The position numbers and the translations under genes are program-made. From Candidatus Parcubacteria bacterium (GTDB taxonomy: Bacteria > Patescibacteriota > Minisyncoccia > UBA6257 > JAPLYJ01), in the NCBI GenBank assembly GCA_026395655.1, contig JAPLYJ010000064.1, positions 1 through 34,259 on the forward strand: DNA of 34,259 nt. The letters are read 5' to 3'. Position 1 is the first letter of the stretch; each line of letters starts with the position of its first letter. Below, in pieces: positions 11,079-34,259 of this stretch. The notes beneath the pieces were generated by a model, which ran no database searches, had not been told where the DNA came from, and worked only from the letters and a program-made list of their open reading frames with translations.

Positions 11079-11107
11079 TTGACAAAATCATACAAAGAAA
11101 GTATAAA
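11079..11107 (+). promoter_or_regulatory. Consensus sigma70-type promoter for the 11227 cassette
   Basis: TTGACA (11079-11084), 17-nt spacer, TATAAA (11102-11107). It starts right after the tsaC stop and is followed by a leader of about 110 nt with an imperfect hairpin: GTAGCCGTAGCCAC...ATGGCTATGACTAC. Confidence 0.55.
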
Positions 11108-11226
11108 TTGAGAAGTTCTTTAATAATTTATTTATGAATGTAGCCGTAGCCACAAGATTCTAATTTTTTGGAATTTTATGGCTATGACTACTAATAATAG
11201 TTCTTTAGCAGAAAAGGAGACTGATC

Positions 11227-11916: not shown

Positions 11917-11941
11917 AGAGTTTAGCTTCTTAGTAATACAA

Positions 11942-11972
11942 GACCCCTCAAATAATTGAGGGGTCATTTTTT
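11942..11972 (+). terminator. Rho-independent terminator
   Basis: GACCCCTCA aataat TGAGGGGTC followed by ATTTTTTATT. Confidence 0.85.
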
Positions 11973-22646: not shown

Positions 22647-22825
22647 GTTAGATGTTTAATTGTTAAACATTGTAGCATTTTTTTGTATGTTTTGTCATTC
22701 TTTCTGCCATTGACAAAAATGGTATAACTTGTTAAGGTATTTAATAAAAAGTACATTGAAAATATATTTTCCCTCATAAACCCTGAATTCGCAATAAAAT
22801 GTGACAGGTAGAGGCAGGAGGAAAG

Positions 22826-23461: not shown

Positions 23462-23480
23462 TCGCGTAGTAACAACAATC

Positions 23481-23523
23481 GAGCCCCAGTGGTTAAACAT
23501 CTACCACATGGGGCTCTTTTTTT
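23481..23523 (+). terminator. Rho-independent terminator
   Basis: GAGCCCCAGTGG ...11-nt loop... CCAC(a)TGGGGCTC followed by TTTTTTT. Confidence 0.85.
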
Positions 23524-23657
23524 AACTATAGTTTTTGAATAATATATTTTTAAAAAATATTTTTGATATTTAAACAAAAATTTGAACTTTTTAATTATTG
23601 TTTTTTGTGTTAAATTATTATTAATGGAAAAACCAAAAATAACTATAAAATAAAAAC

Positions 23658-25385
23658 ATGGACGGGAAAAAGATTATATCAGGGATGCCATCAATGTCTC
23701 CAAAAACACCAGAGGCAATGGAGCAACCAAAAGAAATTGAAAAAAAGTTTTTAATTGAAACCTTGCCTGATAATTTAGAAGATTATCCTTCTGAAGAAAT
23801 TATGCAAGGATATATTGCTATTACCGACGATGGTACGGAAGTTCGTTTACGCAAAAAAGGTGATATGTATTTTCAAACAATTAAAAGTGGGAATGGAAAA
23901 ACAAGAACAGAATCTGAAATTGAGATAACAGAAGAACAATTTAATATACTTTGGAAAACAACGGTTGGTAAAAGATTAGAAAAAAAGAGATATAAAATTC
24001 CTCATGCAAATGGAGTGATTGAATTAGATATCTATGGCGAAGGCTTAGAAGGTCTTGTAACAGCTGAAATAGAGTTTCCATCCGAAGAGGAAAGTGATGC
24101 GTTTGTTGTCCCAACTTGGTTTGGCGAAGAAGTAACAGAAGACAAAAGATATAAAAATCAAAAATTAGTATCTAGTGGTATGCCTGAAGAAGAGAATTTA
24201 GAAATATTAGATATCCCTGAATATAATTTAGAAGATGGCATAGAAAAAATAGTATCTCTTATTAATGAAAAATTATCCTCACAAACAGGTCCTGTTTTGA
24301 TTGAAATTGCAGGGGGTTCGGCTTCTGGCAAAACAAGCGCTGTCTCTCGGAAAATAAAAGAAATTTTTGGTGATGAAGCAATTATTTTTTCAATGGATGA
24401 TTACTATCGCGGAAAAACATTTATGAACAGCGAAGCAGAAAAAGGGAATAATCTAAATTGGGATCAACCAGAAGCTCTTAATTTAGAACTATTGCAAGAA
24501 CATTTAAAAAATTTAAAAAGCGGAGAGCAAATTGAAAAACCAGTATATGATATGAAAACTAGCGAACCCATAGATACAGAGATAATTCAACCTAACAGAG
24601 TTATTATCGTAGAAGGTCTATTCGCCCTTAATGATATCATCTCAGGAGAGGGTGATATTAAAGTATTTGTTGATATTGGTACGCATGGAAGGATTTTAAG
24701 AAGACTTTTGCGTGATATAGAGAGAACGGGTCAAAAGCCTGCTGATATTTTAAGGTATTTTGCTGAGGTAGTAGAGCCAATGCATGAAAAGTATATTCAA
24801 AACACGAAAAAGAACGCTAACATCATTGTAGATAATGAATATAGTCCAAAAGTAGAAGCTCAAAAGTCTGGCTTACATGAAATTCAATTAAAATTTAAAA
24901 TTGAATTAGATGCAGAAACTTTACGCAAGCTTGGCGCAGAAAGATTAAGTTCAACTACTCAAGTTGATTATTATTACAATCCTAAGGACAGAAATTTGAT
25001 TGAAACGAATGAGATTTTAAGAATTCGCCAAGAAGGGGATCACAAAATCTTAACTTATAAAGGTCCGAGGATGGAATCGGAATATAGGAAAAGACCAAAA
25101 TTTGAATTTGAAATTGATGAAGAAACAAATGAAAAATTCTTATCAATTTATGGTGACCAGATAAAAGAGATTAGAAAAGAAAGAATTTTATATGAATTAG
25201 AGGGAATAATATTTTCCATAGATTCAGTCATGAAAATAGAAGATGGGAAAGAAATAGATTTAGGCAAATTTATTGAGATTAGATCTACTAATAAAGAAAT
25301 AAATGATGAAAAAATAAAAGATGTAATATCAAAGCTTGGTCTGTCTTTACCGGATGGTATCAAAGAGTCGTATTTTGAAATGTAA
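23658..25385 (+). CDS. Triple-domain protein: CYTH (triphosphate tunnel metalloenzyme), uridine-kinase/PRK-family P-loop kinase, then a second CYTH (CyaB-like)
   Basis: CYTH1: EIEKKFL (ExExK), EVRLRKKG, ESEIEI, RYKI, ELDIY, AEIEF. Kinase: IAGGSASGKTS, SMDDYYRG, NWDQPEALN, VIIVEGLFAL, RRLLRDI. CYTH2: HEIQLKFKI, ILRIRQEG, LTYKGP, FEFEI. Confidence 0.8.
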   Translation: MDGKKIISGMPSMSPKTPEAMEQPKEIEKKFLIETLPDNLEDYPSEEIMQGYIAITDDGTEVRLRKKGDMYFQTIKSGNGKTRTESEIEITEEQFNILWKTTVGKRLEKKRYKIPHANGVIELDIYGEGLEGLVTAEIEFPSEEESDAFVVPTWFGEEVTEDKRYKNQKLVSSGMPEEENLEILDIPEYNLEDGIEKIVSLINEKLSSQTGPVLIEIAGGSASGKTSAVSRKIKEIFGDEAIIFSMDDYYRGKTFMNSEAEKGNNLNWDQPEALNLELLQEHLKNLKSGEQIEKPVYDMKTSEPIDTEIIQPNRVIIVEGLFALNDIISGEGDIKVFVDIGTHGRILRRLLRDIERTGQKPADILRYFAEVVEPMHEKYIQNTKKNANIIVDNEYSPKVEAQKSGLHEIQLKFKIELDAETLRKLGAERLSSTTQVDYYYNPKDRNLIETNEILRIRQEGDHKILTYKGPRMESEYRKRPKFEFEIDEETNEKFLSIYGDQIKEIRKERILYELEGIIFSIDSVMKIEDGKEIDLGKFIEIRSTNKEINDEKIKDVISKLGLSLPDGIKESYFEM

Positions 25386-25410
25386 TTTATTAATTAAAAA
25401 AACAAAAAAA

Positions 25411-26271
25411 ATGAATCAAAACAATTTTGTATCTGGAATGCCTCAGATGCCTCAAGAAAGCAAAGAGAGCGAACCAAAAATTGCGAAATTATCAGTTAAT
25501 GATTTTGCTGAAAAAATTGGGATTCAGCCCGATCAGCAAGGTCGTGTTACTTTTGCTCCAGAGCATGATAGGTTAGCATATGAATACGCTGAGAAATTTG
25601 CTCGCGACAATAAAGCAGAAAGAGTTATTATAGATGGTATTGCTTCTCCTGGAGTGATAGCTAGTTTTTTACATGGTATGCACCCAGCAGAAGGTTATTT
25701 AACCTATATGTCAAAAGACGCAGAAGGTAAAATGACAAAAGGTGAGACTAAAGTTTTAGAACCATTACCTCAAGGCGAAGGACAAGGACCAGAAGGTTTT
25801 ACATGGGTAAAAAAAGAAACCGAGGATTATACCTTAGTGGAATTTAATCTTGCTGGAGATTTTAAGATAGAAGATTTAGATAAAGTTATTCCTCCTGATG
25901 TTAATCCTGCAAAACCAGTGTTAATTTCCGGTCGTGGTCCTCTTTATCTAACTCATACAATTGCTGCTGGGTACAGGCATTATAAAGGCATTCCAGGGGT
26001 TGGTTTTTATCAGCCAGCAAGTAAATTCGGACCAGCTAAAACTGAAGTTGGTGTTTCTCACAATGAAGAGTTACCTTTAGGATTGAATTTTGGTGAACCA
26101 TCTGAAATTGGCACAGCTAAAGAGTTACATGAAAAACGAATTAAAGAGGGATTATCTGAAATAAAAAAGGGTAAAATTGTTTCTGTAGAAACAAATGATA
26201 AAATCATAAAATTTACTTTAGATAGCGGTGAAACATACAGTTTATCTGTTCGCGAGGTAACAAAAGAATAA
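25411..26271 (+). CDS. Csx3-like protein (possible tandem/pseudo-dimeric Csx3 fold), 286 aa
   Basis: YTLVEFNL...KPVLISGRGPLYLTHTIAAGYRH...VGFYQP...VGVSHNEE is collinear with my recollection of A. fulgidus Csx3 (FTLIHFEI...GVVISGRGPIWLHCFLAHKYHH...VAVYDPRLG...VVQSHSE). An upstream segment RVIIDGIASPGVIASFLHGMHP looks like a degenerate second copy. The ATG at 25411 is preferred over the alternative start at 25336. Confidence 0.55.
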   Translation: MNQNNFVSGMPQMPQESKESEPKIAKLSVNDFAEKIGIQPDQQGRVTFAPEHDRLAYEYAEKFARDNKAERVIIDGIASPGVIASFLHGMHPAEGYLTYMSKDAEGKMTKGETKVLEPLPQGEGQGPEGFTWVKKETEDYTLVEFNLAGDFKIEDLDKVIPPDVNPAKPVLISGRGPLYLTHTIAAGYRHYKGIPGVGFYQPASKFGPAKTEVGVSHNEELPLGLNFGEPSEIGTAKELHEKRIKEGLSEIKKGKIVSVETNDKIIKFTLDSGETYSLSVREVTKE

Positions 26272-26357
26272 TCTCAAAAATATAGAAGATTCTAATTCAA
26301 TACGACAAGGATATTAAAATATAATTAATAAGAGATAATTGATAATGAGTTAATACT

Positions 26358-29300
26358 ATGTCAGAACAAATTAATCTTTCAAAAGGGAAAGAAAAAAAGG
26401 AAACCATCTTAATACCTGAGCAACAAGTTATTAAAAATTATATTAATGAAGTTCTTGTAGCTGATAATAAATTAGATCTACCAGTAGTAATAATTTCTAG
26501 TCCCGAAGCCCAAGAAATAGTGAAGCAAAAGCTCATTACGTGTTTTAAAAACAATAATATTAATGATGCTATTAAAATTAATGATACATTTAAGCTACCA
26601 AAGGAAATAATCCAAGAAGCAGTTAAACAAGGAATTATTTATCATTTGAGAGGCCATTATATTTATAATGCTTTTGAAATTAGTAATGCATTTAATTTGC
26701 CACCAAAAATAGTCCAAGAAGTAACCAAACAAGCGCTCATTAACTATTTTGAATATGGATATATTGAGTCTGCTATCGAAATTACTGAGATATTTAATTT
26801 ACCTGATGAAATAATTTTTAGTCTTGAAGTGCAACAGGCAGCAGCACAACCATTTATTAGTAAATTTAAATATGGTTCTCTTGACGATGCTATTAAAATT
26901 AATGATACATTTAAGCTACCAAAGGAAATAATTCAAGAAACAGCTAAACAAGCGTTTATTGTATGGTTTTGCAACCATCGTATTGATGATGTTATTTATG
27001 ATATTAGCATAGCCCAATATGCATTTAATTTACCCAAAACAATAGCCCAAGATGCACCTAAACAAGGATATATTGAATGCCTTAAGAGTGGTTTAATTGA
27101 CGCTGCTATAGAAATCAAAGATATATGCAAATTATCTTTATCTAAAGAGATAATTTCTGATCCAGAAGTACAAAAAGGAATTGAAGAAGGATTTATTAAT
27201 TATCTTCATAATAATCAAATTGATATTGCTATTAAAATTAAAGATGAATTTAATCTACCAGACGAAATAGTCCAAAAAGCAGTAGAACAAGTAGTTATTA
27301 AACATTTGCGTGAGCATCAAGTTAATATTGCCATTAAAATCAAAGACAAGTTTAATTTATACATATCTCCACAAAAAATAATTGATCAGATCCCTAAGCT
27401 AGTTGATATCATTGAACAAATATCTCAATTGGCACCACCATTTAAGATGCAAACGGAGAAATCTAGCGAGTTGGTAATTGGATTGTGTCGTTTTATTAAT
27501 AAGCCAGATTATTTAATAAATCTATTAAAAGAAAAACTCTATTTGATTGATGCCATAATGAGTAACCCTCGTTTTGGTTCAAGACTTCTTTTGAAATATC
27601 CTGAATTTGACGAAATGTCTAAAGAAAATATAGAAAAACTTTTTTTAACTAAACAAAAAATATTAGAGCAAAATCCTGATATAGATCCGGAATCATTAGA
27701 ATTTCGTCAATTAATGCAGGAGGAATTAAAAACATTCAAAAACAATCCCGAAATAATGGAAGAAATCGAAAAGCAAGGAATTAATTTAGAAGAATGGCTT
27801 AATCATTCTGAAACTAGTTATTTTAACCTTTCTTCTAAGGGTAGCGAGATTAGTTTTTCAGAGAAAATCAGAACGCCAATAGATAGAATTAAAGAAACTA
27901 TTGATAGCTATGCCCATACCATTAAATCAGTTTTAAAAGAATATATACTAGAATTAAAAAAACATGAGATAGCTTTAGAAAATGATGAATCTGTTAAAGA
28001 GCAGATTACAAAAATGGAGGGTGCTTTAGAACAAGCCCAAGCAGAAGGCAATGATACAAAAATTAAAGGAATAGAAAGAGGTCTATTGACTCAAAGAGAA
28101 AGATTAAATAATCCTAAAAAGGGTATTCTTTGGGACAAACTCATGGGTGATATTGAAGCTTTCCAAGGTCTTAAAAATGATTGTTTTGATGCTCAAAAGA
28201 AATTAATAGAAGCAGAGGACAAATTAACAGGAGCTCTTGCAGGTAAAGCACCTTCTGGCAAAGGTGTTTTAGAGATAAAACAAAAAATTGCTCAAGCTAA
28301 AGAAGAATTAAGAAATAAGTTTAATGTTTTAGAAAGAAGAATTGAAAATTTTAAAATTAATTTACCCAAACTTTTATCACCGTGCCTTGGGCAAGAAAGA
28401 AGTGAAGCCTTGATTCAGGAAATAGACCAGGCAGTAGCTGAGCAATTTTATCATTTTGAATTAGATAGAACTGTTTTAGCAAATATGTTTTCTGAAAGAA
28501 ACGACAAGGAAACAGAGCAATTAGAGTCCAGACCAATGAGTATTTTTGTTTGGGCGAGAAATCCTGACATTGATCTTTATCAAGGTGATTATTCACCCTG
28601 TTGCATTTGCATAGATAGTTATGATGCTACAGAATCAACAATAGCAGATTATAATACAGATCTTGGCATTCAAATCGTTAATATTTGGGATGAAGCAAAA
28701 AACGAACCAGTTACTGCTGCCTGGTGTTGGTTGGGTCAAAACGAAAATGGAGAAAAGGCATTAGTGATAGATAACATTGAATCCAATGTACTTTTTAGTA
28801 CTAATTTTTCAGAACAATTATCTAAAGAATTATTAGATTATATTATAAATTACGCTAAAAAAATTGGAGTTGATAAAGTAATTCTAGGAGTAGACTATAG
28901 TGACCTACCTAGTGCTTCTAAGTTATTAGAATTAAAATGGGATAATAATGAATATGAAAAAATTGGTGGAAGCAATAGAGAATATGGGTATTATTTAGAG
29001 TCGGAAGGAGATATTATCAAGCTTATTTGGGACAGGAAAGAAGACGAAACAATAAAACAACCAAAAGAAGCAAGAAAACAAAAAGAAACTATTAAATTTG
29101 AAAACATATCTGTTACTAATTTGACTGAAGAAAATTTTGATGAGATTAGACAATTAGAAGCTAAAATTTATCAAGATACTGGATTAGCCCAAGGTTCAGG
29201 ATTAATAGAAAATATAAAATCTGATAATGGCTTAGAATACTCATTAATAATTAGAGGTAAACAACCAGATCAAGAAGAAAAAATTATTGGATATATCGTA

Positions 29301-29621
29301 GCCGTAGATGACGAAACCGATGAAGGTGATCCCTGCATATATTTAGAAGATATTGCAGTGTTAGATGAAGCCCAGGGTCAAGGATTGGGTTGGGAGATGC
29401 TTAAAGAATTAGTTAATAAGTTAAAAATTAAAGCACAAAAAAACAAAAAACCAATATTGCTAGATATGCATTTAAGAAAAAATTCCCAGGGATTATTACA
29501 AAAACACAAAGAAGATTTAGAAGAGATGGGGGTAAGATTAACAGAAGAAGCATTAGAACCTAATTATTATGATACAAATGAAGATGCGTTGTATCAGATT
29601 TATCAAATTCAAATAGATTAA
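26358..29621 (+). CDS. Large multidomain protein (1087 aa): N-terminal array of about 34-aa helical repeats, a coiled-coil-like middle, a Cys/Trp-rich domain and a C-terminal GNAT N-acetyltransferase
   Basis: Repeats F(N/K)LPxEIxQxAxKQxxIxxL...I(D/N)xAIxIxD x about 8. GNAT motif A IYLEDIAVLDEAQGQGLGWEMLKELV at roughly aa 995-1020. Confidence 0.8.
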   Translation: MSEQINLSKGKEKKETILIPEQQVIKNYINEVLVADNKLDLPVVIISSPEAQEIVKQKLITCFKNNNINDAIKINDTFKLPKEIIQEAVKQGIIYHLRGHYIYNAFEISNAFNLPPKIVQEVTKQALINYFEYGYIESAIEITEIFNLPDEIIFSLEVQQAAAQPFISKFKYGSLDDAIKINDTFKLPKEIIQETAKQAFIVWFCNHRIDDVIYDISIAQYAFNLPKTIAQDAPKQGYIECLKSGLIDAAIEIKDICKLSLSKEIISDPEVQKGIEEGFINYLHNNQIDIAIKIKDEFNLPDEIVQKAVEQVVIKHLREHQVNIAIKIKDKFNLYISPQKIIDQIPKLVDIIEQISQLAPPFKMQTEKSSELVIGLCRFINKPDYLINLLKEKLYLIDAIMSNPRFGSRLLLKYPEFDEMSKENIEKLFLTKQKILEQNPDIDPESLEFRQLMQEELKTFKNNPEIMEEIEKQGINLEEWLNHSETSYFNLSSKGSEISFSEKIRTPIDRIKETIDSYAHTIKSVLKEYILELKKHEIALENDESVKEQITKMEGALEQAQAEGNDTKIKGIERGLLTQRERLNNPKKGILWDKLMGDIEAFQGLKNDCFDAQKKLIEAEDKLTGALAGKAPSGKGVLEIKQKIAQAKEELRNKFNVLERRIENFKINLPKLLSPCLGQERSEALIQEIDQAVAEQFYHFELDRTVLANMFSERNDKETEQLESRPMSIFVWARNPDIDLYQGDYSPCCICIDSYDATESTIADYNTDLGIQIVNIWDEAKNEPVTAAWCWLGQNENGEKALVIDNIESNVLFSTNFSEQLSKELLDYIINYAKKIGVDKVILGVDYSDLPSASKLLELKWDNNEYEKIGGSNREYGYYLESEGDIIKLIWDRKEDETIKQPKEARKQKETIKFENISVTNLTEENFDEIRQLEAKIYQDTGLAQGSGLIENIKSDNGLEYSLIIRGKQPDQEEKIIGYIVAVDDETDEGDPCIYLEDIAVLDEAQGQGLGWEMLKELVNKLKIKAQKNKKPILLDMHLRKNSQGLLQKHKEDLEEMGVRLTEEALEPNYYDTNEDALYQIYQIQID
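26466..27390 (+). repeat. Intragenic array of about 8 degenerate 34-codon repeats. Two segments 321 nt apart are nearly identical at the DNA level.
   Basis: gatgctattaaaattaatgatacatttaagctaccaaaggaaataat is identical at 26565-26611 and 26886-26932 (both encode DAIKINDTFKLPKEII). Confidence 0.85.
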
Positions 29622-29637
29622 GATGTTTTACCACCTA

Positions 29638-29666
29638 TTGACAAATCTTTAAGAATATGCATAATA
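29638..29666 (+). promoter_or_regulatory. Consensus sigma70-type promoter P1, 17 nt after the stop of the 1087-aa gene
   Basis: TTGACA (29638-29643), 17 nt, ATAATA (29661-29666). Confidence 0.6.
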
Positions 29667-29671
29667 ACAAA

Positions 29672-29976
29672 TAGAACATTGAGATTAGTTTTTTAAAAAT
29701 GCTTTGGATGATTGCTGACTGTTATTTAGCTACTTAGAGATAGGTGATTAAATAACAGCCAGCAACATCGGCTGACACCTCGCCCTAGGTGGAAAGGCAC
29801 CCCTAGGAACGAAAGGAGACGCCTCCGTATGGTTCCATACCCTGCAGGTGTTCCCCCTTAGCATTTTTTTAAGGCGACGACACCGCCTTATTCATCCCCG
29901 CCCAGTCTGGTGTCGAGACTAGGGCTTATAGAAAAAAATTTGGTAAGTCTCAGCCGAAATATGACTGAGACTTACC
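29672..29976 (+). ncRNA. Candidate structured RNA A1 (about 300 nt), unknown class
   Basis: No long ORF. Contains a 17-bp AT-rich hairpin (29712-29765), a CCTAGG hairpin, a 10-codon mini-ORF (29829-29861), an AAGGCG/CGCCTT hairpin (29871-29889), a hairpin with a GGUGUCG loop (29901-29924) and a terminal 12-bp hairpin (29942-29976). Confidence 0.45.
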
Positions 29977-29981
29977 ACCAT

Positions 29982-30010
29982 TTGACAAATTCTGATAGAT
30001 ATGCTATACT
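29982..30010 (+). promoter_or_regulatory. Consensus sigma70-type promoter P2
   Basis: TTGACA (29982-29987), 17 nt, TATACT (30005-30010). Confidence 0.6.
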
Positions 30011-30015
30011 AAGTG

Positions 30016-30206
30016 AGTAATTGAATAGAGTTAGGTTTTTAAGCTAGTTTGTCCCCAAAGCTTCCAGAACTTTACAATTTAAAAAGTATACATTAAGGAG
30101 AGGCCGCCCGAGCTGGGGCGGTAATACAAATCAGCTAAAACGGCTAAGCGAAGTATCTTTAGGTTAATTTTTAATCTTCTCCGGATATTTCGCTTAGCCG
30201 TTTTTT
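30016..30206 (+). ncRNA. Candidate small RNA B (about 190 nt) ending in a long intrinsic terminator
   Basis: No ORF after its AAGGAGAGG motif. Contains a CCGCCC gagct GGGCGG hairpin. The terminator CGGCTAAGCGAA...TTCGCTTAGCCG (30141-30200, extendable to about 18 bp) is followed by TTTTTT. Confidence 0.45.
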
Positions 30207-30752
30207 AAACGGTTAACAGCACCTTAACATATTGTTCAAAATCATCTGCCATTCACTTTTTAAGGAGAGAGTGGCTACCTTAATAGGTAGTAACAGGAGA
30301 GAGTCCAAGGAGAGAGAATGGATTATAGATAATTTTGAATGAAGCCCAAACCAAATTAGCGAGTTAGAGAATTAAATTAAAAGGGCAAAAATATTTAATT
30401 CTTCAAATACCAAATATTGGTTAAAAAATAAACTCGCTGCTCCTAATTTAGCGGTAAAACTGCGGTTAGGACTGCTGCAATTAAGATTAACCCCCTTAAT
30501 TGGTCAGCAGGCCTTAGATTTGCTTGATACAAATTAAGAAAATTTAAGGCCTGCTAATTCTCAGCAGGAGAAAGGTGGTGGTGCCGATGATCGCATCGGG
30601 CATCCCGCCGTAACAAATCAAGGACGGCACCGTCCTCTCTATCCGAGAAGGGTTGACACATCAGTCTTGGTGCCGAGATTGATGGAAAAACGGTTTATGG
30701 GGTAAGTTTACCGAGACTTCGAGAGAAATAAACTCTCGGCTAAACTTACCCC
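30207..30752 (+). ncRNA. Hairpin-dense non-coding stretch including RNA A2, the 3'-module paralogue of A1
   Basis: Three AGGAGAGAG copies (30263-30316). A multibranch unit closed by GCGAGTT/AACTCGC. A perfect 10-bp GCAGGCCTTA/TAAGGCCTGC stem. A mini-ORF at 30587-30613. An AGGACG/CGTCCT hairpin (30621-30636). A GGUGCCG-loop hairpin (30659-30684). A terminal hairpin at 30699-30752. Confidence 0.4.
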
Positions 30753-30843
30753 CTCACATTCAGATTATAAATTAAAAATAATTTGTAATTTGAAACATGA
30801 GGATAGAGTTCTTTTAAAAATAAAAAATCGCTTCTAGCTATTT

Positions 30844-30892
30844 CTGGCTGCTGTTTAGGTATTTAATATTTAGATATTTGAATAGCAGTCAG
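30844..30892 (+). promoter_or_regulatory. Conserved 14-bp leader hairpin (copy 1)
   Basis: CTGGCTGCTGTTTA ...21 nt... TGAATAGCAGTCAG with three G-U pairs. The paralogue at 31800-31848 differs only on the 3' arm, and pairing is kept. Confidence 0.6.
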
Positions 30893-30947
30893 AACGACCC
30901 TCAGAAGTCCTGACCGTAGTATAGCAGGCCGAGGAAGAAGGAGAAAC

Positions 30948-31217
30948 ATGCAATGCACGAAGGAGTGGAAAACCCAGGATGTTATTACACGCGGGGAACG
31001 CGTAACCTGGTGGGAGGCAAACCACTACCGGGTAATTGTCCCGGTATTCGAAAGTAGCAATGAGGAATTTGAGTTTCTCATTGCCCACAAGCTAGAACAT
31101 GCGGACCAGTACGGTGATTCTTCCGGAGATTCTTCCTTCTCAGATTTCTTTTGGGACAGGATAGAGAGCTTAGCAGAGACACTCGGGGTGCCTGCCCCGC
31201 AAAGGTCGTCTCGCTAA
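30948..31217 (+). CDS. Possible small protein (89 aa) in module copy 1. Coding status uncertain because the segment is hairpin-rich.
   Basis: SD gaAGGAGaaacATG. Protein-like sequence with a GDSSGDSS tandem repeat. It also contains perfect inverted repeats (31026-31046, 31057-31084, 31184-31199). Confidence 0.35.
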   Translation: MQCTKEWKTQDVITRGERVTWWEANHYRVIVPVFESSNEEFEFLIAHKLEHADQYGDSSGDSSFSDFFWDRIESLAETLGVPAPQRSSR

Positions 31218-31268
31218 GTCTACGGAATAATAGTTGGAGAGGTGTCCCGAATCCTCTAAAAAATCGGG

Positions 31269-31294
31269 GGCAGAGCGATGCCGATCGCTCTGCC
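31269..31294 (+). promoter_or_regulatory. Conserved GC-rich hairpin downstream of the module ORF (copy 1)
   Basis: GGCAGAGCGAT gccg ATCGCTCTGCC. The paralogue at 32112-32135 (AGCAGAGCGA tgcg TCGTTCTGCT) carries a G-C to A-T compensatory pair. Confidence 0.6.
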
Positions 31295-31327
31295 AAATGG
31301 CCCTTCGGGGTTTATTCGGGAGGTTCT

Positions 31328-31363
31328 GGAAAGTTTCCTCGGTAAAAACTTTCCAATCTTTTT
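31328..31363 (+). terminator. Rho-independent terminator (module copy 1, first unit)
   Basis: GGAAAGTTT cctcggtaa AAACTTTCC then AATCTTTTT. Confidence 0.7.
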
Positions 31364-31441
31364 CAGCTCATAAACAAAATTTGTGGTCTGAAAGAGGAGA
31401 AATATTAGTTCTTTACAATTTTTAATATTTCCTTATTCTAA

Positions 31442-31496
31442 TTTTGTGTTGCTAATTTAGTAATTTATTTTAGATTATTAAATCGGCAACACAAAA
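31442..31496 (+). promoter_or_regulatory. Conserved leader hairpin immediately upstream of the SD of the small TM ORF (copy 1)
   Basis: TTTTGTGTTGC ...33 nt... GCAACACAAAA. Paralogue at 32267-32321. Confidence 0.6.
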
Positions 31497-31517
31497 AAGA
31501 AAGGAGAAAAGAGAAAA

Positions 31518-31667
31518 ATGAGTCCAGAAGATACGGGACCTTTTTGGGGCCCACTGGTTATCTACGGTCCCTTGTTGTTGGGGCTCGCAATTGTAGCGGT
31601 TATATCCCGTTACAATGAATGGAAAAAGGAGATCACTAATCTCCTAGAAAGGAGAAAAAGAAAATAA
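31518..31667 (+). CDS. Small membrane peptide (49 aa): one TM helix plus a basic tail
   Basis: SD aAAGGAGaaaagagaaaaATG. Sequence MSPEDTGPFWGPLVIYGPLLLGLAIVAVISRYNEWKKEITNLLERRKRK. Below the ORF-track size cut-off. Confidence 0.5.
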   Translation: MSPEDTGPFWGPLVIYGPLLLGLAIVAVISRYNEWKKEITNLLERRKRK

Positions 31668-31679
31668 GAAAAGGCGGAC

Positions 31680-31716
31680 GGCAGGTTCCGCTAAGGGTTA
31701 TAACCTGCCTCTTTTT
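31680..31716 (+). terminator. Rho-independent terminator (end of module copy 1)
   Basis: GGCAGGTT ...14 nt... AACCTGCC then TCTTTTT. Confidence 0.75.
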
Positions 31717-31799
31717 CAGATTATAAATTAAAAAAAATTTGTAATTTGAAACATGAGGTTAGAGTTCTTTTAAAAATTAAAAAACGCTTCTAGTTATTT

Positions 31800-31848
31800 C
31801 TGGCTGCTGTTTAGATATTTAATATTTAGATATTTAAATAGCGGCCAG
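31800..31848 (+). promoter_or_regulatory. Conserved 14-bp leader hairpin (copy 2)
   Basis: CTGGCTGCTGTTTA ...21 nt... TAAATAGCGGCCAG. Confidence 0.6.
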
Positions 31849-31898
31849 GAATTGGTCGACTAATTCTTACCTAAGAAGGTAAGAGAAAGGAGTATGGG

Positions 31899-32090
31899 AT
31901 GGGGATCCCAGTTGGTTATACAAAACACCTAATACTGTGTTTTGTGGAACAGGCGCAGGATCAGGCGCCTGTCACGGGCACAGGCGACTCCACGTGGTAT
32001 GTGGAGTCGCTATGTAATATCATCCGCCGTTTATTGGCGGATGAGCCAGATGAGCCATTCCTAGCAGTAGTTAATCAAGGGGTGCCCTAA
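31899..32090 (+). CDS. Possible small protein (63 aa). More likely a multi-hairpin RNA, or dual-use.
   Basis: SD aAAGGAGtatgggATG, but 31865-32043 consists of six consecutive perfect hairpins. The start codon sits inside one of them. Confidence 0.25.
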   Translation: MGIPVGYTKHLILCFVEQAQDQAPVTGTGDSTWYVESLCNIIRRLLADEPDEPFLAVVNQGVP

Positions 32091-32111
32091 ATCCTCTTTA
32101 AAAAAAATCGG

Positions 32112-32135
32112 AGCAGAGCGATGCGTCGTTCTGCT
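32112..32135 (+). promoter_or_regulatory. Conserved GC-rich hairpin downstream of the module ORF (copy 2)
   Basis: AGCAGAGCGA tgcg TCGTTCTGCT, homologous to 31269-31294. Confidence 0.55.
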
Positions 32136-32163
32136 AGGTTGTGCCCTGCGGGGTATAGATTCG

Positions 32164-32203
32164 CAGGGAGGCGTGTTGGTTACACGAACTCCCTGTTCTT
32201 TTT
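32164..32203 (+). terminator. Rho-independent terminator (module copy 2, first unit)
   Basis: CAGGGAG ...18 nt with inner GTGT/ACAC... CTCCCTG then TTCTTTTT. Same position as 31328-31363 but a different sequence. Confidence 0.7.
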
Positions 32204-32266
32204 CAGCTCATAAACAGAATTTGTGATCTGAAAGAGGAGAAAGTATTAGTTTTTTTCTTTTTCTAA

Positions 32267-32321
32267 TTTTGTGTTGCTAATTTAGTAATTTACTTTAGAT
32301 TATTAAATCGACAACACAAAA
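32267..32321 (+). promoter_or_regulatory. Conserved leader hairpin upstream of the small TM ORF (copy 2)
   Basis: TTTTGTGTTG ... CAACACAAAA. Confidence 0.55.
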
Positions 32322-32338
32322 AAAGAGGAGGCATTAAA

Positions 32339-32482
32339 ATGACCATCGAACAATTAGCACGGCTCCTACTTTTAGTAGGAGTGATCATGATTGCAGCTTA
32401 GATCATGGCTGCAATCACCTGGAAGAAGTATTCCAGGTGGTGGATCTGGAAGTATAAAATAGAAAGGAGGGAAAAAAGATAA
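32339..32482 (+). pseudogene. Paralogue of the small TM peptide interrupted by an in-frame TAG (32399-32401)
   Basis: SD agAGGAGGcattaaaATG. Sequence MTIEQLARLLLLVGVIMIAA*IMAAITWKKYSRWWIWKYKIERREKR. It shares TM + WKK + ERR(K/E)KR architecture with 31518-31667. The TAG lies in the loop of a perfect 10-bp hairpin, TGATTGCAGC/GCTGCAATCA. Confidence 0.35.
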
Positions 32483-32528
32483 AAAAAGCGGATGGCAGGT
32501 TTCGCTAACGGTTATACCCTACCTCTTT

Positions 32529-32641
32529 TTCAGATTATAAATTAAAAATAATTTGTAGTTTGAAAGAAGGGGATATTAGCTCTTTAAAAAACATTTTTGC
32601 AAGGAATACAATTATATTTTAGATGTAGTTGTATTCCTCGC
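32529..32641 (+). repeat. Third, partial module copy (box retained, different leader hairpin)
   Basis: 32529-32565 matches the box at 30759-30795 and 31715-31751. This is followed by the hairpin GCAAGGAATACAA...TTGTATTCCTCGC (32599-32641). Confidence 0.7.
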
Positions 32642-32689
32642 AAAAAGATAGCCACTAAAAACTATACGTGGCAGAAAGGAGGTAATAAA

Positions 32690-33076
32690 ATGAAAGAATT
32701 GGAAGATGCTTTCAACTTTTTGGATAAAAAAATCCAAGAAGTAAAAGATGAGGAAGAGGCAACAAAAAAACGTGCTGCCATTTTTCCCGAAACTGCCCTG
32801 AAGTTGTTACAAAGGGCAACTAGAGAGACAGTGCATATTCTTCTGCCTCACTCCACAGGCAAAATGTGCCTAATCTTTTCACCTCCCATCGAAAAGATTC
32901 AAAAATGGTGGCTTTGCATATATCATGGAGAGCCATTATCGTTTGTTTTTGACGACGACGGATGGGCCAATAACATGCTCGTCAAAGAATGCCTCCAGGC
33001 GTTTATTGATAGGGCTGTTGAGCCCAAAGTATTTCTGGCTTTTCCCAAAGAGCCAGAAATGTTTCCTCAAGTTTAA
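32690..33076 (+). CDS. Hypothetical protein (128 aa)
   Basis: SD aAAGGAGGtaataaaATG at the internal Met of ORF 32597-33076. Protein-like sequence (MKELEDAFNFLDKKIQEVKDEEE...). No motif recognised. Confidence 0.55.
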   Translation: MKELEDAFNFLDKKIQEVKDEEEATKKRAAIFPETALKLLQRATRETVHILLPHSTGKMCLIFSPPIEKIQKWWLCIYHGEPLSFVFDDDGWANNMLVKECLQAFIDRAVEPKVFLAFPKEPEMFPQV

Positions 33077-33167
33077 CTTTAACGTTAGCTCTTTCTGATG
33101 CGAGGCAGAAAGGAAAAAAATGGGGGAGGGATAAATAACATTCCTCCCCAATTTCTCATAAAAAAAA

Positions 33168-33195
33168 TTGACAGTTAATCTCAGTTTGATAATAT
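33168..33195 (+). promoter_or_regulatory. Consensus sigma70-type promoter for the rod-like RNA
   Basis: TTGACA (33168-33173), 16 nt, TAATAT (33190-33195). Confidence 0.55.
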
Positions 33196-33202
33196 TAAAG
33201 TA

Positions 33203-33323
33203 CAAACAAGAACCGCTTAGAGGCGGACTAAAGTGAAGAAGTGATGTCCATCTTTCGGGGTGGAGGAATCTCTCTCCTTACATCATTAATTCATATTTGG
33301 TCTGCCCTTAAGCGGTTTTTTTT
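33203..33323 (+). ncRNA. Candidate rod-like small RNA (about 115 nt), unknown class
   Basis: Long closing helix AACCGCTTAGAGGCGGAC / GTCTGCCCTTAAGCGGTT. Inner GTGATGT/ACATCAT helix. Apical hairpin with a UUCG loop. Followed by TTTTTTT. No ORF. Confidence 0.45.
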
Positions 33324-33342
33324 ATTTTTTAAAAAATATTTC

Positions 33343-33370
33343 TTGCCAAAATATGTTAAAAGTGTATAAT
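33343..33370 (+). promoter_or_regulatory. Promoter of tRNA-Lys
   Basis: TTGCCA, 16 nt, TATAAT (33365-33370). The tRNA 5' end lies about 10 nt downstream. Confidence 0.55.
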
Positions 33371-33379
33371 ATTTTTTAT

Positions 33380-33452
33380 GCCTCCATAGCTCAATTGGTA
33401 GAGCAATAGCCTTTTAAGCTAGTGGTTGCAGGTCCGAGTCCTGCTGGAGGCA
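33380..33452 (+). tRNA. tRNA-Lys (anticodon UUU), 73 nt, no encoded CCA
   Basis: Cloverleaf folded by hand: GCCTCCA TA GCTC AATTGGTA GAGC A ATAGC CTTTTAA GCTAG TGGTT GCAGG TCCGAGT CCTGC TGGAGGC A. Confidence 0.88.
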
Positions 33453-33476
33453 CAATTTAAAAAAATTAATAAAAAT

Positions 33477-34259
33477 ATGTTTAAATTAGATCTCAAAAAA
33501 AAGTCTTGGCTCACAACAATTATCATTTTTGTTTTAGCCATCTTAGCTGTTTTCTACGTGTATCCTGCGCCATGGAATAATCTAGCTATTAAAATTAATA
33601 ACAGTCAGAAAGCTAAATACAATCGTGTTATTGTTCATTTTCCATATTTTATCAACAAACCTTTTAGCTTGGGCTTAGATTTAATTGGAGGTACGGCTTT
33701 AACTTATAAAGCAGATTTATCTAATATTGCTCCTTCAAATTACACTAATGCCATGGATGGTTTGCGTGATGTTATTGAAAGAAGGGTAAACTTTTTTGGA
33801 GCTAAAGAACCTAGAATCGCTGTAGAAAAAGTAGGGGATGAATGGCGTTTGGTTGCAGAATTAGCTGGTATCACTGATATTAAAGAAGCTATCGCTGCCA
33901 TCGGAGAAACACCTTTTTTGGAATTCAAAGAAGCTAGAACCGATGAAGAAACTAAAAGTATTTTAGAACTTCAAAAAGCAGAATCTGTAAAACCAGAACC
34001 TGACATTACTATCTTGTCCCAAGATCCATATTTCAAACCTACCAGCTTAAATGGTAGATATCTTAAAACTGCCAATGTACAATTTGATTCTACAACTAAC
34101 GAACCTATCATTGATATCCAATTTGATGAACAAGGTTCTCAGATTTTTCAAGAATTAACAAAAAATAATATTAACAAACCTTTAGCTATTTATTTAGATG
34201 GTGCCCCTATCAGTACCCCAGTAGTACGTGAAGAAATTTCTGGAGGTAAAGCACAAATC
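33477..34259 (+). CDS. secD: Protein translocase subunit SecD, 3' end beyond the window
   Basis: MFKLDLKKKSWLTTIIIFVLAIL (TM), LGLDLIGGTALTYKAD, VIERRVNFFGAKEPRIAVEKVGDEWRLVAELAGI. Open to the last base of the window. Confidence 0.85.
   Translation, partial: MFKLDLKKKSWLTTIIIFVLAILAVFYVYPAPWNNLAIKINNSQKAKYNRVIVHFPYFINKPFSLGLDLIGGTALTYKADLSNIAPSNYTNAMDGLRDVIERRVNFFGAKEPRIAVEKVGDEWRLVAELAGITDIKEAIAAIGETPFLEFKEARTDEETKSILELQKAESVKPEPDITILSQDPYFKPTSLNGRYLKTANVQFDSTTNEPIIDIQFDEQGSQIFQELTKNNINKPLAIYLDGAPISTPVVREEISGGKAQI

What the first reader, a model, noticed from the sequence alone, without database searches (positions are those of the whole stretch)
29622..33330. 3.7-kb ORF-poor island packed with promoters, SD motifs, perfect hairpins and small ORFs, directly downstream of the CYTH/Csx3-like/GNAT genes
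The rest of the window is more than 90% coding and AT-rich. This stretch has only one ORF over 100 aa and is visibly richer in G+C (for example ggtggtggtgccgatgatcgcatcgggcatcccgccg).

It contains at least three TTGACA-16/17-TAnAnT promoters (29638, 29982, 33168) and at least five hairpin+U-tract terminators. It also has dozens of perfect 6-12 bp stem-loops and 16 AGGAG motifs on the + strand.

I looked for hallmark sequences of tmRNA, RNase P, SRP, 6S and group II intron domain V and did not see them. It looks like an array of independently transcribed structured RNAs and micro-proteins of unknown class.

P1 starts 17 nt after the stop of the 1087-aa repeat/GNAT gene. A functional link to the upstream module is therefore conceivable (inference).
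Basis: partly seen in the sequence, partly recalled or inferred. Interest (0 to 1): 0.85.

Follow-up and report, generated by a model that had tools for sequence, protein, structure and literature searches.

The report
Strain-variable hairpin-rich small-gene island
A 3.7-kb stretch beside a lysine tRNA gene in an uncultured Patescibacteria genome is a real insert that varies between strains; it holds small orphan genes and candidate small RNAs that share a reusable set of RNA hairpins, its function is unknown, and it is not tied to the genes upstream.

Summary
Compared with the rest of the contig, 29622-33330 is ORF-poor and richer in G+C. It is also enriched in consensus promoters, terminators, perfect hairpins and plus-strand AGGAG, and it folds far better than shuffled sequence. 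No Rfam family matches it.

It is not a loose pile of hairpins. It holds three promoter-to-terminator units without ORFs (candidate sRNAs). After them comes a co-directional array of five small orphan ORFs: 89, 49, 63, 20/46 and 128 aa. Two of these encode single-span membrane peptides.

Each ORF is preceded by the same modular leader: a T hairpin with a U-run, a ~22-bp helix 'hp2', and a ~25-bp helix 'hp3'. The leaders are 75-93% identical between units, while the ORFs are unrelated.

Independent assemblies reproduce both ends of the island. Conspecific contigs (L087/L090) carry a minimal allele instead: P1-RNA, T, hp2 and one membrane peptide. They also lack the upstream CYTH/Csx3/GNAT block, so the proposed link to that block is not supported.

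Tests for integron attC sites and for TIGR arrays were both negative. My best reading is a strain-variable array of modular expression cassettes resembling phage PeSLs or morons, possibly built around a type-I-toxin-like peptide. The function remains unproven.

The parts
29638..29665 (+). Promoter P1 (TTGACA-16-CATAAT)
   Evidence: 11/12 match. It is a paralogue of P2, including the upstream TTACCACC (family D6). It is conserved in L087.
29672..29870 (+). P1-RNA: ORF-less structured transcript (candidate sRNA or long leader). A closing stem spans 29695-29870 and ends in U7. An hp3-like hairpin lies at 29712-29765.
   Evidence: Fold z = -8.1. It is 86% identical in L087, with 3 compensatory pairs. 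No Rfam match. The 5' end is inferred from the -10 element.
29941..29977 (.). T-family hairpin T0 (TGGTAAGT...ACTTACCA), 13-bp perfect stem with an A-run upstream. On the - strand it reads as a terminator.
   Evidence: Same stem family as 30699-30752 and the two T copies in L087.
29982..30010 (+). Promoter P2 (TTGACA-17-TATACT, with TG)
30017..30206 (+). P2-RNA: ORF-less unit that ends in a 22-bp terminator hairpin plus U6 (30139-30206). It contains an exposed AAGGAGAGG with no start codon after it.
   Evidence: (z = -4.5). The 5' end is inferred.
30207..30698 (+). Region X: a cluster of hairpins with no credible ORF. It has three AAGGAGAGAG repeats (30260-30321) and a weak TTGACA promoter at 30653.
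   Evidence: z = -9.4.
30699..30894 (+). Leader A1: T hairpin (30699-30752, no U-run), hp2 (30752-30802), AGAGTTCTTTTAAAAA motif (30805), hp3 (30842-30894).
30948..31217 (+). ORF A1, 89 aa, SD-preceded, acidic, an orphan.
   Evidence: No Pfam, PHROG, PADLOC or NCBIfam match. No true homologue in 1.84 billion representatives. GC3 = 0.57.
31238..31506 (+). Leader B1: GC hairpin (31269-31294), T hairpin plus U-run (31327-31362), hp2 (31356-31397), hp3 extended by an anti-SD/SD helix (31429-31506).
   Evidence: (SD unpaired probability 0.04).
31518..31667 (+). ORF B1, 49 aa: one hydrophobic span followed by a Lys/Arg-rich tail.
   Evidence: The membrane span is judged from the sequence. L087 has an analogous peptide at the same position.
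31645..31851 (+). Leader A2: T (31673-31709) plus U-run, hp2 (31708-31758), hp3 (31798-31851). 93% identical to A1 over 134 nt.
31899..32090 (+). ORF A2, 63 aa, an orphan unrelated to A1. It is almost covered by four perfect hairpins (31920-32044), so its coding status is uncertain.
32078..32331 (+). Leader B2: GC hairpin (32112-32135), T (32163-32196) plus U-run, hp2 (32196-32239), hp3 plus anti-SD/SD (32256-32331). 75% identical to B1.
   Evidence: (SD unpaired probability 0.10).
32339..32482 (+). ORF B2: a hydrophobic peptide of 20 aa, or 46 codons if the in-frame TAG at 32399 is read through. The tail is W/K/R-rich.
32460..32646 (+). Leader A3: T (32488-32523) plus U-run, hp2 (32522-32572), a different hp3 (32594-32646).
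32690..33076 (+). ORF of 128 aa, an orphan, followed by a terminator hairpin at 33123-33149.
   Evidence: Only itself found among 5.8 billion proteins (29). AF2 single-sequence model is poor, pLDDT 43 (54).
33168..33323 (+). Promoter P3 (33168-33195) and P3-RNA (about 33202-33323). An 18-bp closing stem ends in U8. Absent from the L087 allele.
   Evidence: (window at 33201, z = -8.7).
33343..33453 (+). tRNA-Lys(UUU) with its promoter. This is the right-hand anchor of the variable locus.
   Evidence: Conserved at 97% in L087 (70).

Best explanation
The island is a strain-variable accessory locus at a recombination hot spot between an EpmA-like gene and tRNA-Lys/secDF in a Patescibacteria chromosome. 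It is built from modular expression cassettes.

Components:
- Three units are promoter-to-terminator transcripts without ORFs: P1-RNA, P2-RNA and P3-RNA (candidate sRNAs).
- The other 2.5 kb is a co-directional array of five small orphan genes.
- Each gene sits behind a portable structured leader made of a T hairpin with a U-run, the ~22-bp helix hp2, and the ~25-bp helix hp3.

How it works at the RNA level (inferred): the leaders act on the + strand as partial terminators, as long double-stranded hairpins for processing or stability (RNase III-type substrates), and as translation gates. For the two membrane-peptide genes, hp3 is extended by a helix that buries the Shine-Dalgarno sequence.

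How it works at the DNA level (inferred): the same leaders are repeated homology blocks. Through them, cassettes (SD plus ORF) are duplicated, swapped, gained and lost. This explains conserved leaders around unrelated ORFs, and the one-cassette allele in a sister strain.

Shown: the anatomy, the strand bias, the structure conservation, the strain polymorphism, and the orphan status and foreign composition of the ORFs.

Inferred: transcription boundaries, processing, translation control and the recombination mechanism.
For: Tandem architecture:
- Leader A copies are 93% and 87% identical. Leader B copies are 75% identical. The intervening ORFs do not align.

RNA structure:
- Leader segments fold with z of about -8. 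The island-wide mean is z = -4.7, against -0.5 elsewhere (45).
- The + strand is favoured: energy asymmetry; an invariant U-G and G-U/G-C alternation in hp2 (74, 117).
- In hp2, 88.9% of cells are paired, against 40-58% when the partners are slid. The outer stem changes CCUC/GAGG to CCAU/AUGG in L087.
- A covariance model of hp2 finds exactly the 5 window copies plus the L087/L090 copies.
- hp3 copies differ in sequence but keep a ~24-bp helix at the same place.
- The SD is buried for B1 and B2 (unpaired probability 0.04 and 0.10).

Strain polymorphism:
- L087/L090 are 97-98% identical in the flanks. They carry only P1-RNA, two T copies, hp2, one 49-aa membrane peptide and a terminator before tRNA-Lys.

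The island is real:
- Logan contigs from other runs match 29399-31465 and 32261-34259 at 100% and break at the B-hp3 repeat.

ORFs:
- They are orphans (29, 62) with GC3 of 0.40-0.57, against 0.19-0.25 for host genes (118).

Same cassette style elsewhere:
- The 229-aa ORFan leader at 11081-11226 in this window.
- Another Patescibacteria contig, L102, has repeated promoter-leader modules (83% identical), a shared AGAGTTCTTTWAAAAA leader motif, small GC-rich ORFs and tRNA adjacency.
Against: - There are no transcript data, so units 'A' and 'B' could be read-through products or could have unrecognised promoters.
- The internal leaders lack canonical sigma-70 promoters, unlike true PeSLs.
- Covariation in hp2 is modest: 4 pairs with double changes, and 28 of 500 shuffles reach the score. 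It rests on six copies from two strains.
- The apparent covariation in hp3 partly comes from aligning independent hairpins at their loops.
- Recent duplication followed by gene conversion of the leaders, with no exchange of cassettes, would give the same picture.
- No hp2 or leader homologue was found outside this species in 596 Gb of genomes, JGI metagenomes or IMG/VR.
- Coding of the 63-aa and 20/46-aa ORFs is doubtful.
Confidence: 0.5

Rival explanations
1. The locus is a type I toxin-antitoxin-like locus (or a membrane-active peptide locus). Its conserved core is a ~49-aa single-span peptide gene whose mRNA leader keeps the SD buried, controlled by an adjacent sRNA such as P1-RNA. The window allele would be a tandem expansion of this core, with one decayed copy and hitch-hiking orphan genes. 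This overlaps with the best explanation rather than excluding it.
For: - Both alleles keep P1-RNA, T, hp2 and a ~49-codon hydrophobic peptide with a basic tail at the same position, although the peptide sequences differ.
- The SD of B1 and B2 is strongly sequestered.
- One copy carries an in-frame stop.
- Tandem duplication, strain-variable copy number and location in an intergenic hot spot are typical of hok, ldr, ibs/sib and aapA loci (general knowledge).
- L102 has tandem W/K-rich small peptide genes behind the same leader motif, next to a tRNA.
Against: - No antisense promoter was found opposite the peptide genes by the consensus scan.
- No significant complementarity was found between P1-, P2- or P3-RNA and any translation start region.
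- Three of the five ORFs are not hydrophobic.
- The membrane span is judged only from the sequence.
- There is no homology to any known toxin family.
Confidence: 0.22
2. The island is essentially non-coding. It encodes one or several large multi-hairpin RNAs of an undescribed class, and most of the small ORFs are accidental.
For: - Raised G+C in an AT-rich genome is a known signature of structured RNA genes (the GC-IGR approach; PMC6429828, from its abstract and general knowledge).
- Strong folding continues through the ORFs.
- The 63-aa ORF is nearly all perfect hairpins, and the B2 stop codon lies in a hairpin loop.
- The first 1.1 kb has no ORF, yet it has exposed AAGGAGAG repeats.
Against: - Five ORFs have well-spaced SD plus ATG.
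- Their GC1>GC2 pattern is typical of coding sequence, most clearly for the 128-aa and 63-aa ORFs.
- The variable parts are exactly the SD-plus-ORF segments, while the conserved parts are intergenic. This fits genes with leaders better than one large RNA.
- There is no Rfam hit, and the conserved pieces are short modules.
Confidence: 0.12
3. The island is a guide-RNA array: a TIGR stem-loop or dual-repeat array (known in CPR bacteria), or a CRISPR-like array.
For: - CPR bacteria are the main non-viral hosts of TIGR stem-loop arrays, which are tandem variable palindromes that repeat finders miss (PMC12045711; bioRxiv 10.64898/2026.09.09.750476).
- The island is full of variable palindromes.
Against: - My re-implementation of the published stem-loop rule finds 0 units on either strand. 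The rule is two 14-nt box C...box D intervals at most 15 nt apart, flanked by a stem of at least 5 bp.
- There is no array with a ~36-nt period.
- No protein in the window has a Nop domain.
- The nearby 211-aa protein gives a confident model with no PDB match at E <= 0.001; the top hits are immunoglobulin chains.
- Most hairpins here have 3-12-nt loops, not ~37-nt loops.
Confidence: 0.03
4. The island is an integron-type cassette array (a CALIN), with the palindromic intergenic elements acting as attC sites.
For: Co-oriented small orphan ORFs are separated by similar imperfect palindromes.
Against: - No RYYYAAC...GTTRRRY pair was found on either strand, and the core motifs are not enriched.
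- There is no tyrosine recombinase on the contig.
- Each spacer holds two or three separate helices.
- The wobble pairs favour the transcribed + strand RNA.
Confidence: 0.02
5. The island is an assembly chimera or contaminating DNA.
For: Its composition differs from the flanks, and contigs of other assemblies break inside it.
Against: - Independent per-run assemblies reproduce the GNAT/P1 junction (L093) and the island/tRNA-Lys/secD junction at 100% identity, each contig being recorded in several sequencing runs.
- The breaks fall exactly at the 32-nt exact hp3-B repeat.
- P1-RNA, T and hp2 are present at the same place in a sister strain.
- The middle 31466-32260 was not independently covered.
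Confidence: 0.02

Closest known systems
PeSL (promoter-early stem-loop) mobile regulatory cassettes in hyperplastic regions of T4-type phages, and phage 'morons'
   Same: - Conserved composite regulatory modules (stem-loop/terminator plus expression signals) flank unrelated small ORFan genes.
- The modules coincide with insertions, deletions and replacements between very close relatives.
- The genes have atypical composition.
- P1 and P2 are near-consensus sigma-70 promoters with the same stem-loop remnant upstream (PMC4122927 and PMC2839356; here).
   Different: - The island is on a cellular Patescibacteria chromosome next to a tRNA gene, not in a phage.
- The internal modules have no recognisable promoter.
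- They carry two additional long helices (hp2, hp3) of 22-25 bp that are not part of PeSLs.
- There is no sequence relation.
Type I toxin-antitoxin repeat loci (hok/sok, ldr/rdl LDR repeats, ibs/sib, aapA/isoA)
   Same: - Tandem, strain-variable repeats.
- Each encodes a hydrophobic peptide of fewer than 60 aa behind a long, highly structured leader that hides the SD.
- sRNA genes lie adjacent.
- Decayed copies occur (general knowledge; here).
   Different: - No antisense or complementary sRNA was found.
- Non-hydrophobic ORFs alternate with the peptides.
- No family homology.
- Toxicity is untested.
Intercistronic RNase III processing hairpins of phage T7/T3 early operons
   Same: Helices of more than 20 bp, with an internal loop (hp2) or near-perfect (hp3), sit between short cistrons of a co-directional array (general knowledge).
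   Different: Cleavage is untested, there is no sequence similarity, and the context is a host chromosome.
TIGR stem-loop arrays of CPR bacteria
   Same: The host group is the same, and both consist of tandem, sequence-variable palindromes that escape repeat finders.
   Different: There are no box C/D spacer intervals, no large loops and no Tas/Nop protein.

Membership tests
Any Rfam 15 RNA family | Covariance-model score at or above the family's gathering threshold | tested here: not met
   Only tRNA-Lys passes. The best other hits are far below threshold: miRNA-precursor models and RAGATH-19 at 30.9 bits against 85.6.
Integron cassette array / CALIN | attC sites with R'' RYYYAAC and R' GTTRRRY cores flanking an imperfect palindrome | tested here: not met
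   0 pairs on either strand in the whole window. The core motifs are not enriched in the island. No attC covariance model was available.
Integron cassette array / CALIN | IntI tyrosine recombinase next to the array (not required for a CALIN) | tested here: not met
   No recombinase domain in any protein of the contig that was scanned.
TIGR-Tas (stem-loop arrays) | Units made of two 14-nt box C...box D intervals, at most 15 nt apart, enclosed by a stem of at least 5 bp | tested here: not met
   My own re-implementation of the published rule gives 0 units on both strands. The rule is taken from bioRxiv 10.64898/2026.09.09.750476.
TIGR-Tas (dual-repeat arrays) / CRISPR | Short-period (~36 nt, or 55-75 nt) array of alternating repeats and spacers | tested here: not met
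   TRF and the repeat finder show only 7-15-nt micro-repeats and the ~0.8-0.95-kb unit.
TIGR-Tas | Adjacent Tas protein with a Nop domain | tested here: not met
   No Nop hit by Pfam. The 211-aa neighbour model (pLDDT 92.8) has no PDB match at E <= 0.001.
Type I toxin-antitoxin | Toxin of fewer than 60 aa with one hydrophobic span | tested here: met
   B1 (49 aa) contains FWGPLVIYGPLLLGLAIVAVIS followed by a basic tail. The L087 peptide contains MWLGFYTGVAMLVGVIVVEIVW followed by a basic tail. This is judged by inspection only; no membrane-span predictor was run.
Type I toxin-antitoxin | Toxin mRNA leader folds so that the SD is inaccessible | tested here: met
   SD unpaired probability is 0.04 (B1) and 0.10 (B2). 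It is 0.4-0.5 for the 89-aa and 63-aa ORFs. This is a prediction only.
Type I toxin-antitoxin | sRNA antitoxin, antisense or partly complementary to the toxin mRNA | tested here: inconclusive
   No consensus promoter was reported opposite the peptide ORFs. By eye, the - strand inside B1's hp3 reads TTGTGT-16-TAAAAT, which is below the scan's threshold. Duplex energies of P1-, P2- and P3-RNA with the start regions are not better than shuffles (z > -3).
Type I toxin-antitoxin | Peptide is toxic when over-expressed and is neutralised by the RNA | not testable with these tools
   Needs an experiment.
PeSL-type regulatory cassettes / morons | Conserved composite stem-loop plus sigma-70 promoter flanking variable ORFans | tested here: inconclusive
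   P1 and P2 share 76% identity over 33 nt, including a stem-loop remnant. The internal leaders are conserved around unrelated ORFs but have no canonical promoter.
PeSL-type regulatory cassettes / morons | Modules coincide with indels or replacements between close relatives | tested here: met
   The window and L087/L090 are 97-98% identical in the flanks. The island is replaced by a one-cassette allele that shares P1-RNA, T and hp2.
PeSL-type regulatory cassettes / morons | Located in a phage or prophage genome | tested here: not met
   The contig is housekeeping throughout, with no phage genes. There is no DNA match in phage or plasmid collections.
tRNA-linked integrative island | Integrase, plus a direct repeat of the tRNA 3' end at the far border | tested here: not met
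   There is no integrase. The island lies 5' of tRNA-Lys. The only tRNA-like repeat is a weak 27-nt match at 70% identity (family D7).

The most novel reading that the evidence does not exclude
Patescibacteria may carry an integrase-independent gene-capture platform next to tRNA genes. In it, portable RNA-hairpin leaders (T/hp2/hp3, with the AGAGTTCTTTWAAAAA motif) would serve two roles at once. They would be the expression and translation-gating module, and they would be the recombination joint for foreign small genes. Those genes would include membrane-active peptides that could matter for the episymbiotic lifestyle. Hints of the same design appear in a second species (L102).
Probability: 0.15. 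Interest if true: 0.7.

Novelty: new variant of a known kind. Interest (0 to 1): 0.42.

Why it matters
Regulatory RNAs and small proteins of Patescibacteria appear to be little described: no Rfam family matched here, and one literature search turned up only TIGR-Tas. This locus provides three things:
- Undescribed, internally replicated RNA modules (hp2, hp3, T, P1-RNA), with strand and structure evidence.
- A natural pair of alleles, a minimal one and an expanded one, that shows how small orphan genes are added to a reduced genome.
- Candidate membrane-active peptides under tight translational control.

If the modular-leader design proves general (see L102), it would be a handle for finding accessory small genes that gene callers miss in these genomes. 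If not, it remains a species-specific oddity.

Tried and rejected
- hp2 consensus pattern in public collections: 0 hits in genome contigs and viral contigs. The single metagenome hit (L001) is an unrelated chance match on another contig.
- A 23-nt leader motif in IMG/VR: 0 hits.
- blastn against phage and plasmid collections: nothing.
- Protein searches: the 128-aa ORF finds only itself. The 89-aa ORF has one apparent hit that is an artefact of six identical repeats in an 872-aa protein.
- AF2 of the 128-aa ORF without an alignment: pLDDT 43, unusable, so no fold search was run on it.
- Synteny through GNAT homologues (L002-L004) and through secD in 80 GTDB genomes: no conserved neighbourhood and no tRNA-Lys upstream. 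The exception is L007, the same species, whose contig starts inside secD.
- sRNA-target duplex search: not significant, and duplexfold on long RNAs gives unrealistic structures.
- Promoters inside hp2 or hp3: hexamers are found on one strand or the other in some copies but are not conserved across the A, B and L087 types (by eye). Left open.
- The hp3 apical TTTAGAT as a special loop motif: the heptamer is common throughout the window, so this was dropped.
- The 211-aa neighbour as a Tas/Nop protein or a purely mobile phage gene: rejected. It is a new fold and sits among housekeeping genes in Minisyncoccus-like genomes.

Full report

Yes. The window is a whole 34,259-bp contig. Its proteins find Patescibacteria relatives such as Falkowbacteria, Buchananbacteria and Azambacteria.

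- ORFs: between 29622 and 33330 the only ORF of 100 aa or more is 32597-33076, which is 128 aa from the SD-preceded ATG at 32690.
- G+C: 0.37-0.425, against about 0.30 elsewhere.
- Promoters: the three TTGACA promoters at 29638, 29982 and 33168 are found by the scan.
- Terminators: terminator-like sites are 3.6-fold above shuffles.
- Hairpins: perfect hairpins of 8 bp or more number 14, against 0.8 expected, and are six times denser than in the rest of the contig.
- AGGAG: 18 on the + strand against 4 on the - strand.
- Folding: 150-nt windows have mean z = -4.7 (72% below -3), against -0.5 (5%) elsewhere. The + strand folds about 8 kcal/mol better than the - strand.
- Rfam: only tRNA-Lys(UUU) at 33380-33453.

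**2. Anatomy**

The region is organised; coordinates are.

(a) P1 (29638-29665) drives an ORF-less, closed structure that ends in U7. This is P1-RNA, about 29672-29870, with fold z = -8.1.

(b) Next comes a 'T' hairpin (29941-29977). P2 (29982-30010), a paralogue of P1, then drives a second ORF-less unit that ends at a 22-bp terminator (30139-30206).

(c) 30207-30698 is a hairpin cluster with three AAGGAGAGAG repeats and no credible ORF.

(d) From 30699 to 33149 there is a tandem array, in this order:
- leader A1, then ORF 89 aa
- leader B1, then ORF 49 aa
- leader A2, then ORF 63 aa
- leader B2, then ORF 20/46 codons (in-frame TAG)
- leader A3, then ORF 128 aa, then a terminator

Leaders A are 93% and 87% identical to each other, and leaders B are 75% identical. 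The ORFs between them do not align at all.

Every leader has the same three parts:
- A G+C-rich T hairpin, usually followed by a U-run.
- hp2, a helix in which that U-run and a CCUC pair with a downstream GAAAGAGG-like purine tract (UGAGG in the A-type leaders), around a CAGnUnAUAAA/UUUGUnnUnUG core.
- hp3, a near-perfect ~25-bp A+U-rich helix just upstream of the SD.

(e) P3 (33168-33195) drives a third ORF-less closed RNA that ends in U8 (about 33202-33323). It lies immediately before the tRNA-Lys promoter.

**3. RNA or DNA, and which strand?**

- The helices contain G-U pairs that would be A-C mismatches on the other strand.
- hp2 has an invariant U-G, a G-U/G-C alternation and a U-A to C-G exchange.
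- 88.9% of its cells pair, against 40-58% when the partners are slid.
- The energy asymmetry across the island points the same way.

Together this argues for + strand transcripts. Covariation support is modest: six copies, and 28 of 500 shuffles reach the score. The 'compensatory' changes in hp3 partly reflect aligning separate hairpins at their loops.

For the two hydrophobic-peptide genes, hp3 is extended by a pyrimidine tract that pairs with the SD (unpaired probability 0.04 and 0.10). The SDs of the 89-aa and 63-aa ORFs are about half open.

**4. Are the ORFs genes?**

All five have a well-spaced SD and ATG.
- The 128-aa and 89-aa products have no homologue in 5.8 billion proteins or 1.84 billion representatives. 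The one apparent hit is a repeat artefact.
- No Pfam, PHROG, PADLOC or NCBIfam family matches any of them.
- GC3 is 0.40-0.57, against 0.19-0.25 in host genes. GC1>GC2, as in coding sequence.
- The 63-aa ORF is almost covered by four perfect hairpins, and the TAG of ORF B2 lies in a hairpin loop. These two are doubtful.

**5. Comparative evidence (the decisive part)**

Exact-protein look-ups recovered contigs of the same species.
- Logan contigs recorded in several sequencing runs are 100% identical to 29399-31465 (L093-L095) and to 32261-34259 (L096-L098). L093 crosses the GNAT/P1 junction; L096 and L097 cross the island/tRNA-Lys/secD junction.
- These contigs stop exactly at the 32-nt exact repeat in hp3-B.
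- So the island is not a chimera. The middle unit (31466-32260) was not independently covered.

Contigs L087 (JGI, 71.8 kb) and L090 are 97-98% identical in the flanks but differ in two ways.
- First, 22699-29622 is absent. This block holds a 211-aa gene, the uridine-kinase/CYTH fusion, the Csx3-like gene and the 1087-aa GNAT gene. The junction lies at an imperfect 12-nt repeat (ATGTTTTGTCAT / ATGTTTTACCAC).
- Second, the island is replaced by about 0.7 kb. This consists of P1 and P1-RNA (86% identical, 3 compensatory pairs), two T hairpins of the same family, one hp2 with a compensated outer stem, an SD, a different 49-aa hydrophobic peptide with a basic tail, and a terminator, followed by tRNA-Lys.

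GNAT homologues elsewhere have unrelated neighbours. secD neighbourhoods in 79 other Patescibacteria genomes show neither tRNA-Lys (checked in the 17 closest loci) nor hp2.

The hp2 pattern occurs nowhere else in the genome, metagenome or viral collections that were scanned.

**6. The same style elsewhere**

- Inside the window, the 229-aa ORFan at 11227 has a TTGACA promoter, an AGTTCTTTAATAA motif, a hairpin, a second AGTTCTTT next to its SD, and its own terminator.
- The 211-aa gene at 22826 is likewise a self-contained unit richer in G+C.
- In another Patescibacteria contig (L102), a homologue of that gene lies in a tRNA-adjacent, ORF-poor 4-kb stretch.
  - It has duplicated promoter-leader modules (83% identical), the same AGTTCTTTNRAAA motif, a long leader hairpin and a small GC-rich ORF.
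  - At the contig end, a second tRNA is followed by TTGACA, then AGAGTTCTTTAAAAAATAAAAAAGAAAGGAGG, then tandem W/K-rich small peptide genes.
  - The 23-nt leader is nearly identical to window 30805-30827.

So modular leaders in front of small accessory genes are probably not unique to this contig. This rests on one other locus.

**7. Mechanism**

Best-supported reading (confidence 0.5): a strain-variable array of modular expression cassettes.

Shown:
- conserved leaders around unrelated ORFs
- + strand structure
- SD occlusion for the peptide genes (predicted)
- presence, absence and expansion polymorphism
- foreign composition and orphan status of the ORFs

Inferred:
- The T hairpins act as leaky terminators.
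- hp2 and hp3, at more than 20 bp of duplex, act as processing or stability elements of the RNase III type.
- The leaders double as homology blocks for duplication and exchange of SD-plus-ORF cassettes.

Main rival, which overlaps with this reading (0.22): the conserved core is a type-I-toxin-like peptide gene with an sRNA partner. The peptide architecture, the buried SD, the tandem copies and the decayed copy all fit. No antisense or complementary RNA was found.

A purely non-coding reading gets 0.12.

**8. Known systems tested and not met**

- Integron attC arrays: no core sites and no integrase.
- TIGR stem-loop or dual-repeat arrays, a real possibility in CPR bacteria (PMC12045711; bioRxiv 10.64898/2026.09.09.750476):
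  - 0 units by the published rule
  - no short-period array
  - no Nop protein
  - the 211-aa neighbour has an unmatched fold
- CRISPR arrays.
- tRNA-integrated islands with an integrase.
- Any Rfam family.

The closest analogues are the PeSL cassettes and morons of phages (PMC4122927, PMC2839356) and type I TA repeat loci. This locus differs from both in defining respects.

**9. Verdict**

With current data it is a new variant of known kinds (modular regulatory cassettes and small-peptide loci) rather than a new category. It is known from one species, with hints in a second, and there is no functional evidence. Interest 0.42.

Noticed in passing
window 22710-23520 (ORF 22826-23461): A self-contained gene richer in G+C (GC 0.49, GC3 0.48), with its own TTGACA promoter and terminator, encodes a 211-aa protein. 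Its family has about 150 clusters at 46-74% identity, in many Patescibacteria (including Minisyncoccus archaeiphilus) and on IMG/VR contigs. There is no Pfam match. AF2 gives pLDDT 92.8 but no fold match in PDB or BFVD. A STIV_B116-like gene follows it in L103/L104, with a decayed copy in L102.
   Followed up: yes
window 22699-29622: A 6.9-kb indel relative to conspecific contigs L087/L090. It contains the 211-aa gene, a uridine-kinase plus CYTH (CyaB-like) fusion, a Csx3-like protein and the 1087-aa repeat/GNAT protein. It is bounded by an imperfect 12-nt direct repeat (ATGTTTTGTCAT / ATGTTTTACCAC). The three large genes have host-like GC3 (0.19-0.22). No PADLOC system matches apart from the Csx3 domain.
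   Followed up: partly
window 11081-11965: The 229-aa ORFan (no Pfam, GC 0.40) has the same cassette style as the island: TTGACA-17-TATAAA, an AGTTCTTTAATAA motif, a 13-bp leader hairpin (fold z = -6.7), a second AGTTCTTT abutting the SD, and its own terminator. It is present in both strains.
   Followed up: partly
L102 14436-14804 and 6984-7770: In another Patescibacteria contig, tRNA genes are followed by TTGACA promoters and a leader (AGAGTTCTTTAAAAAATAAAAAAGAAAGGAGG) nearly identical to window 30805-30827. Behind it lie tandem W/K-rich small peptide genes (MKVIKKW...). A promoter-leader module is duplicated at 83% identity with different downstream content.
   Followed up: partly
window 21612-22646 (-) and 21041-21604 (-): A 344-aa class II Lys-tRNA-synthetase catalytic core with no anticodon-binding domain lies directly next to efp. 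This looks like EpmA/PoxA (EF-P lysyl transferase) rather than a LysRS.
   Followed up: no
window 1827-4371: uvrA appears to be split into two overlapping ORFs (568 aa and 282 aa). This could be a frameshift, a sequencing error or a genuinely split gene.
   Followed up: no
window 32388-32417: The in-frame TAG of ORF B2 (32399-32401) lies in the loop of a perfect 10-bp hairpin. The downstream frame continues into a W/K/R-rich tail that resembles the tails of the other two peptides.
   Followed up: no
L007 (GTDB MAG CAYNAL010000065.1): A same-species MAG (93.5% nt identity over secD) has a contig that begins inside secD, about 170 nt past tRNA-Lys. The hp2 pattern is absent from all GTDB contigs. 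In that MAG the island was therefore either not assembled or binned, or is different.
   Followed up: partly
L103 7700-7810: Upstream of the 214-aa homologue, next to secD in another genome, there is a tRNA-like 3' half (GGTTCAAATCTCGCC...) interrupted by a long palindrome. ARAGORN was not run on this locus.
   Followed up: no
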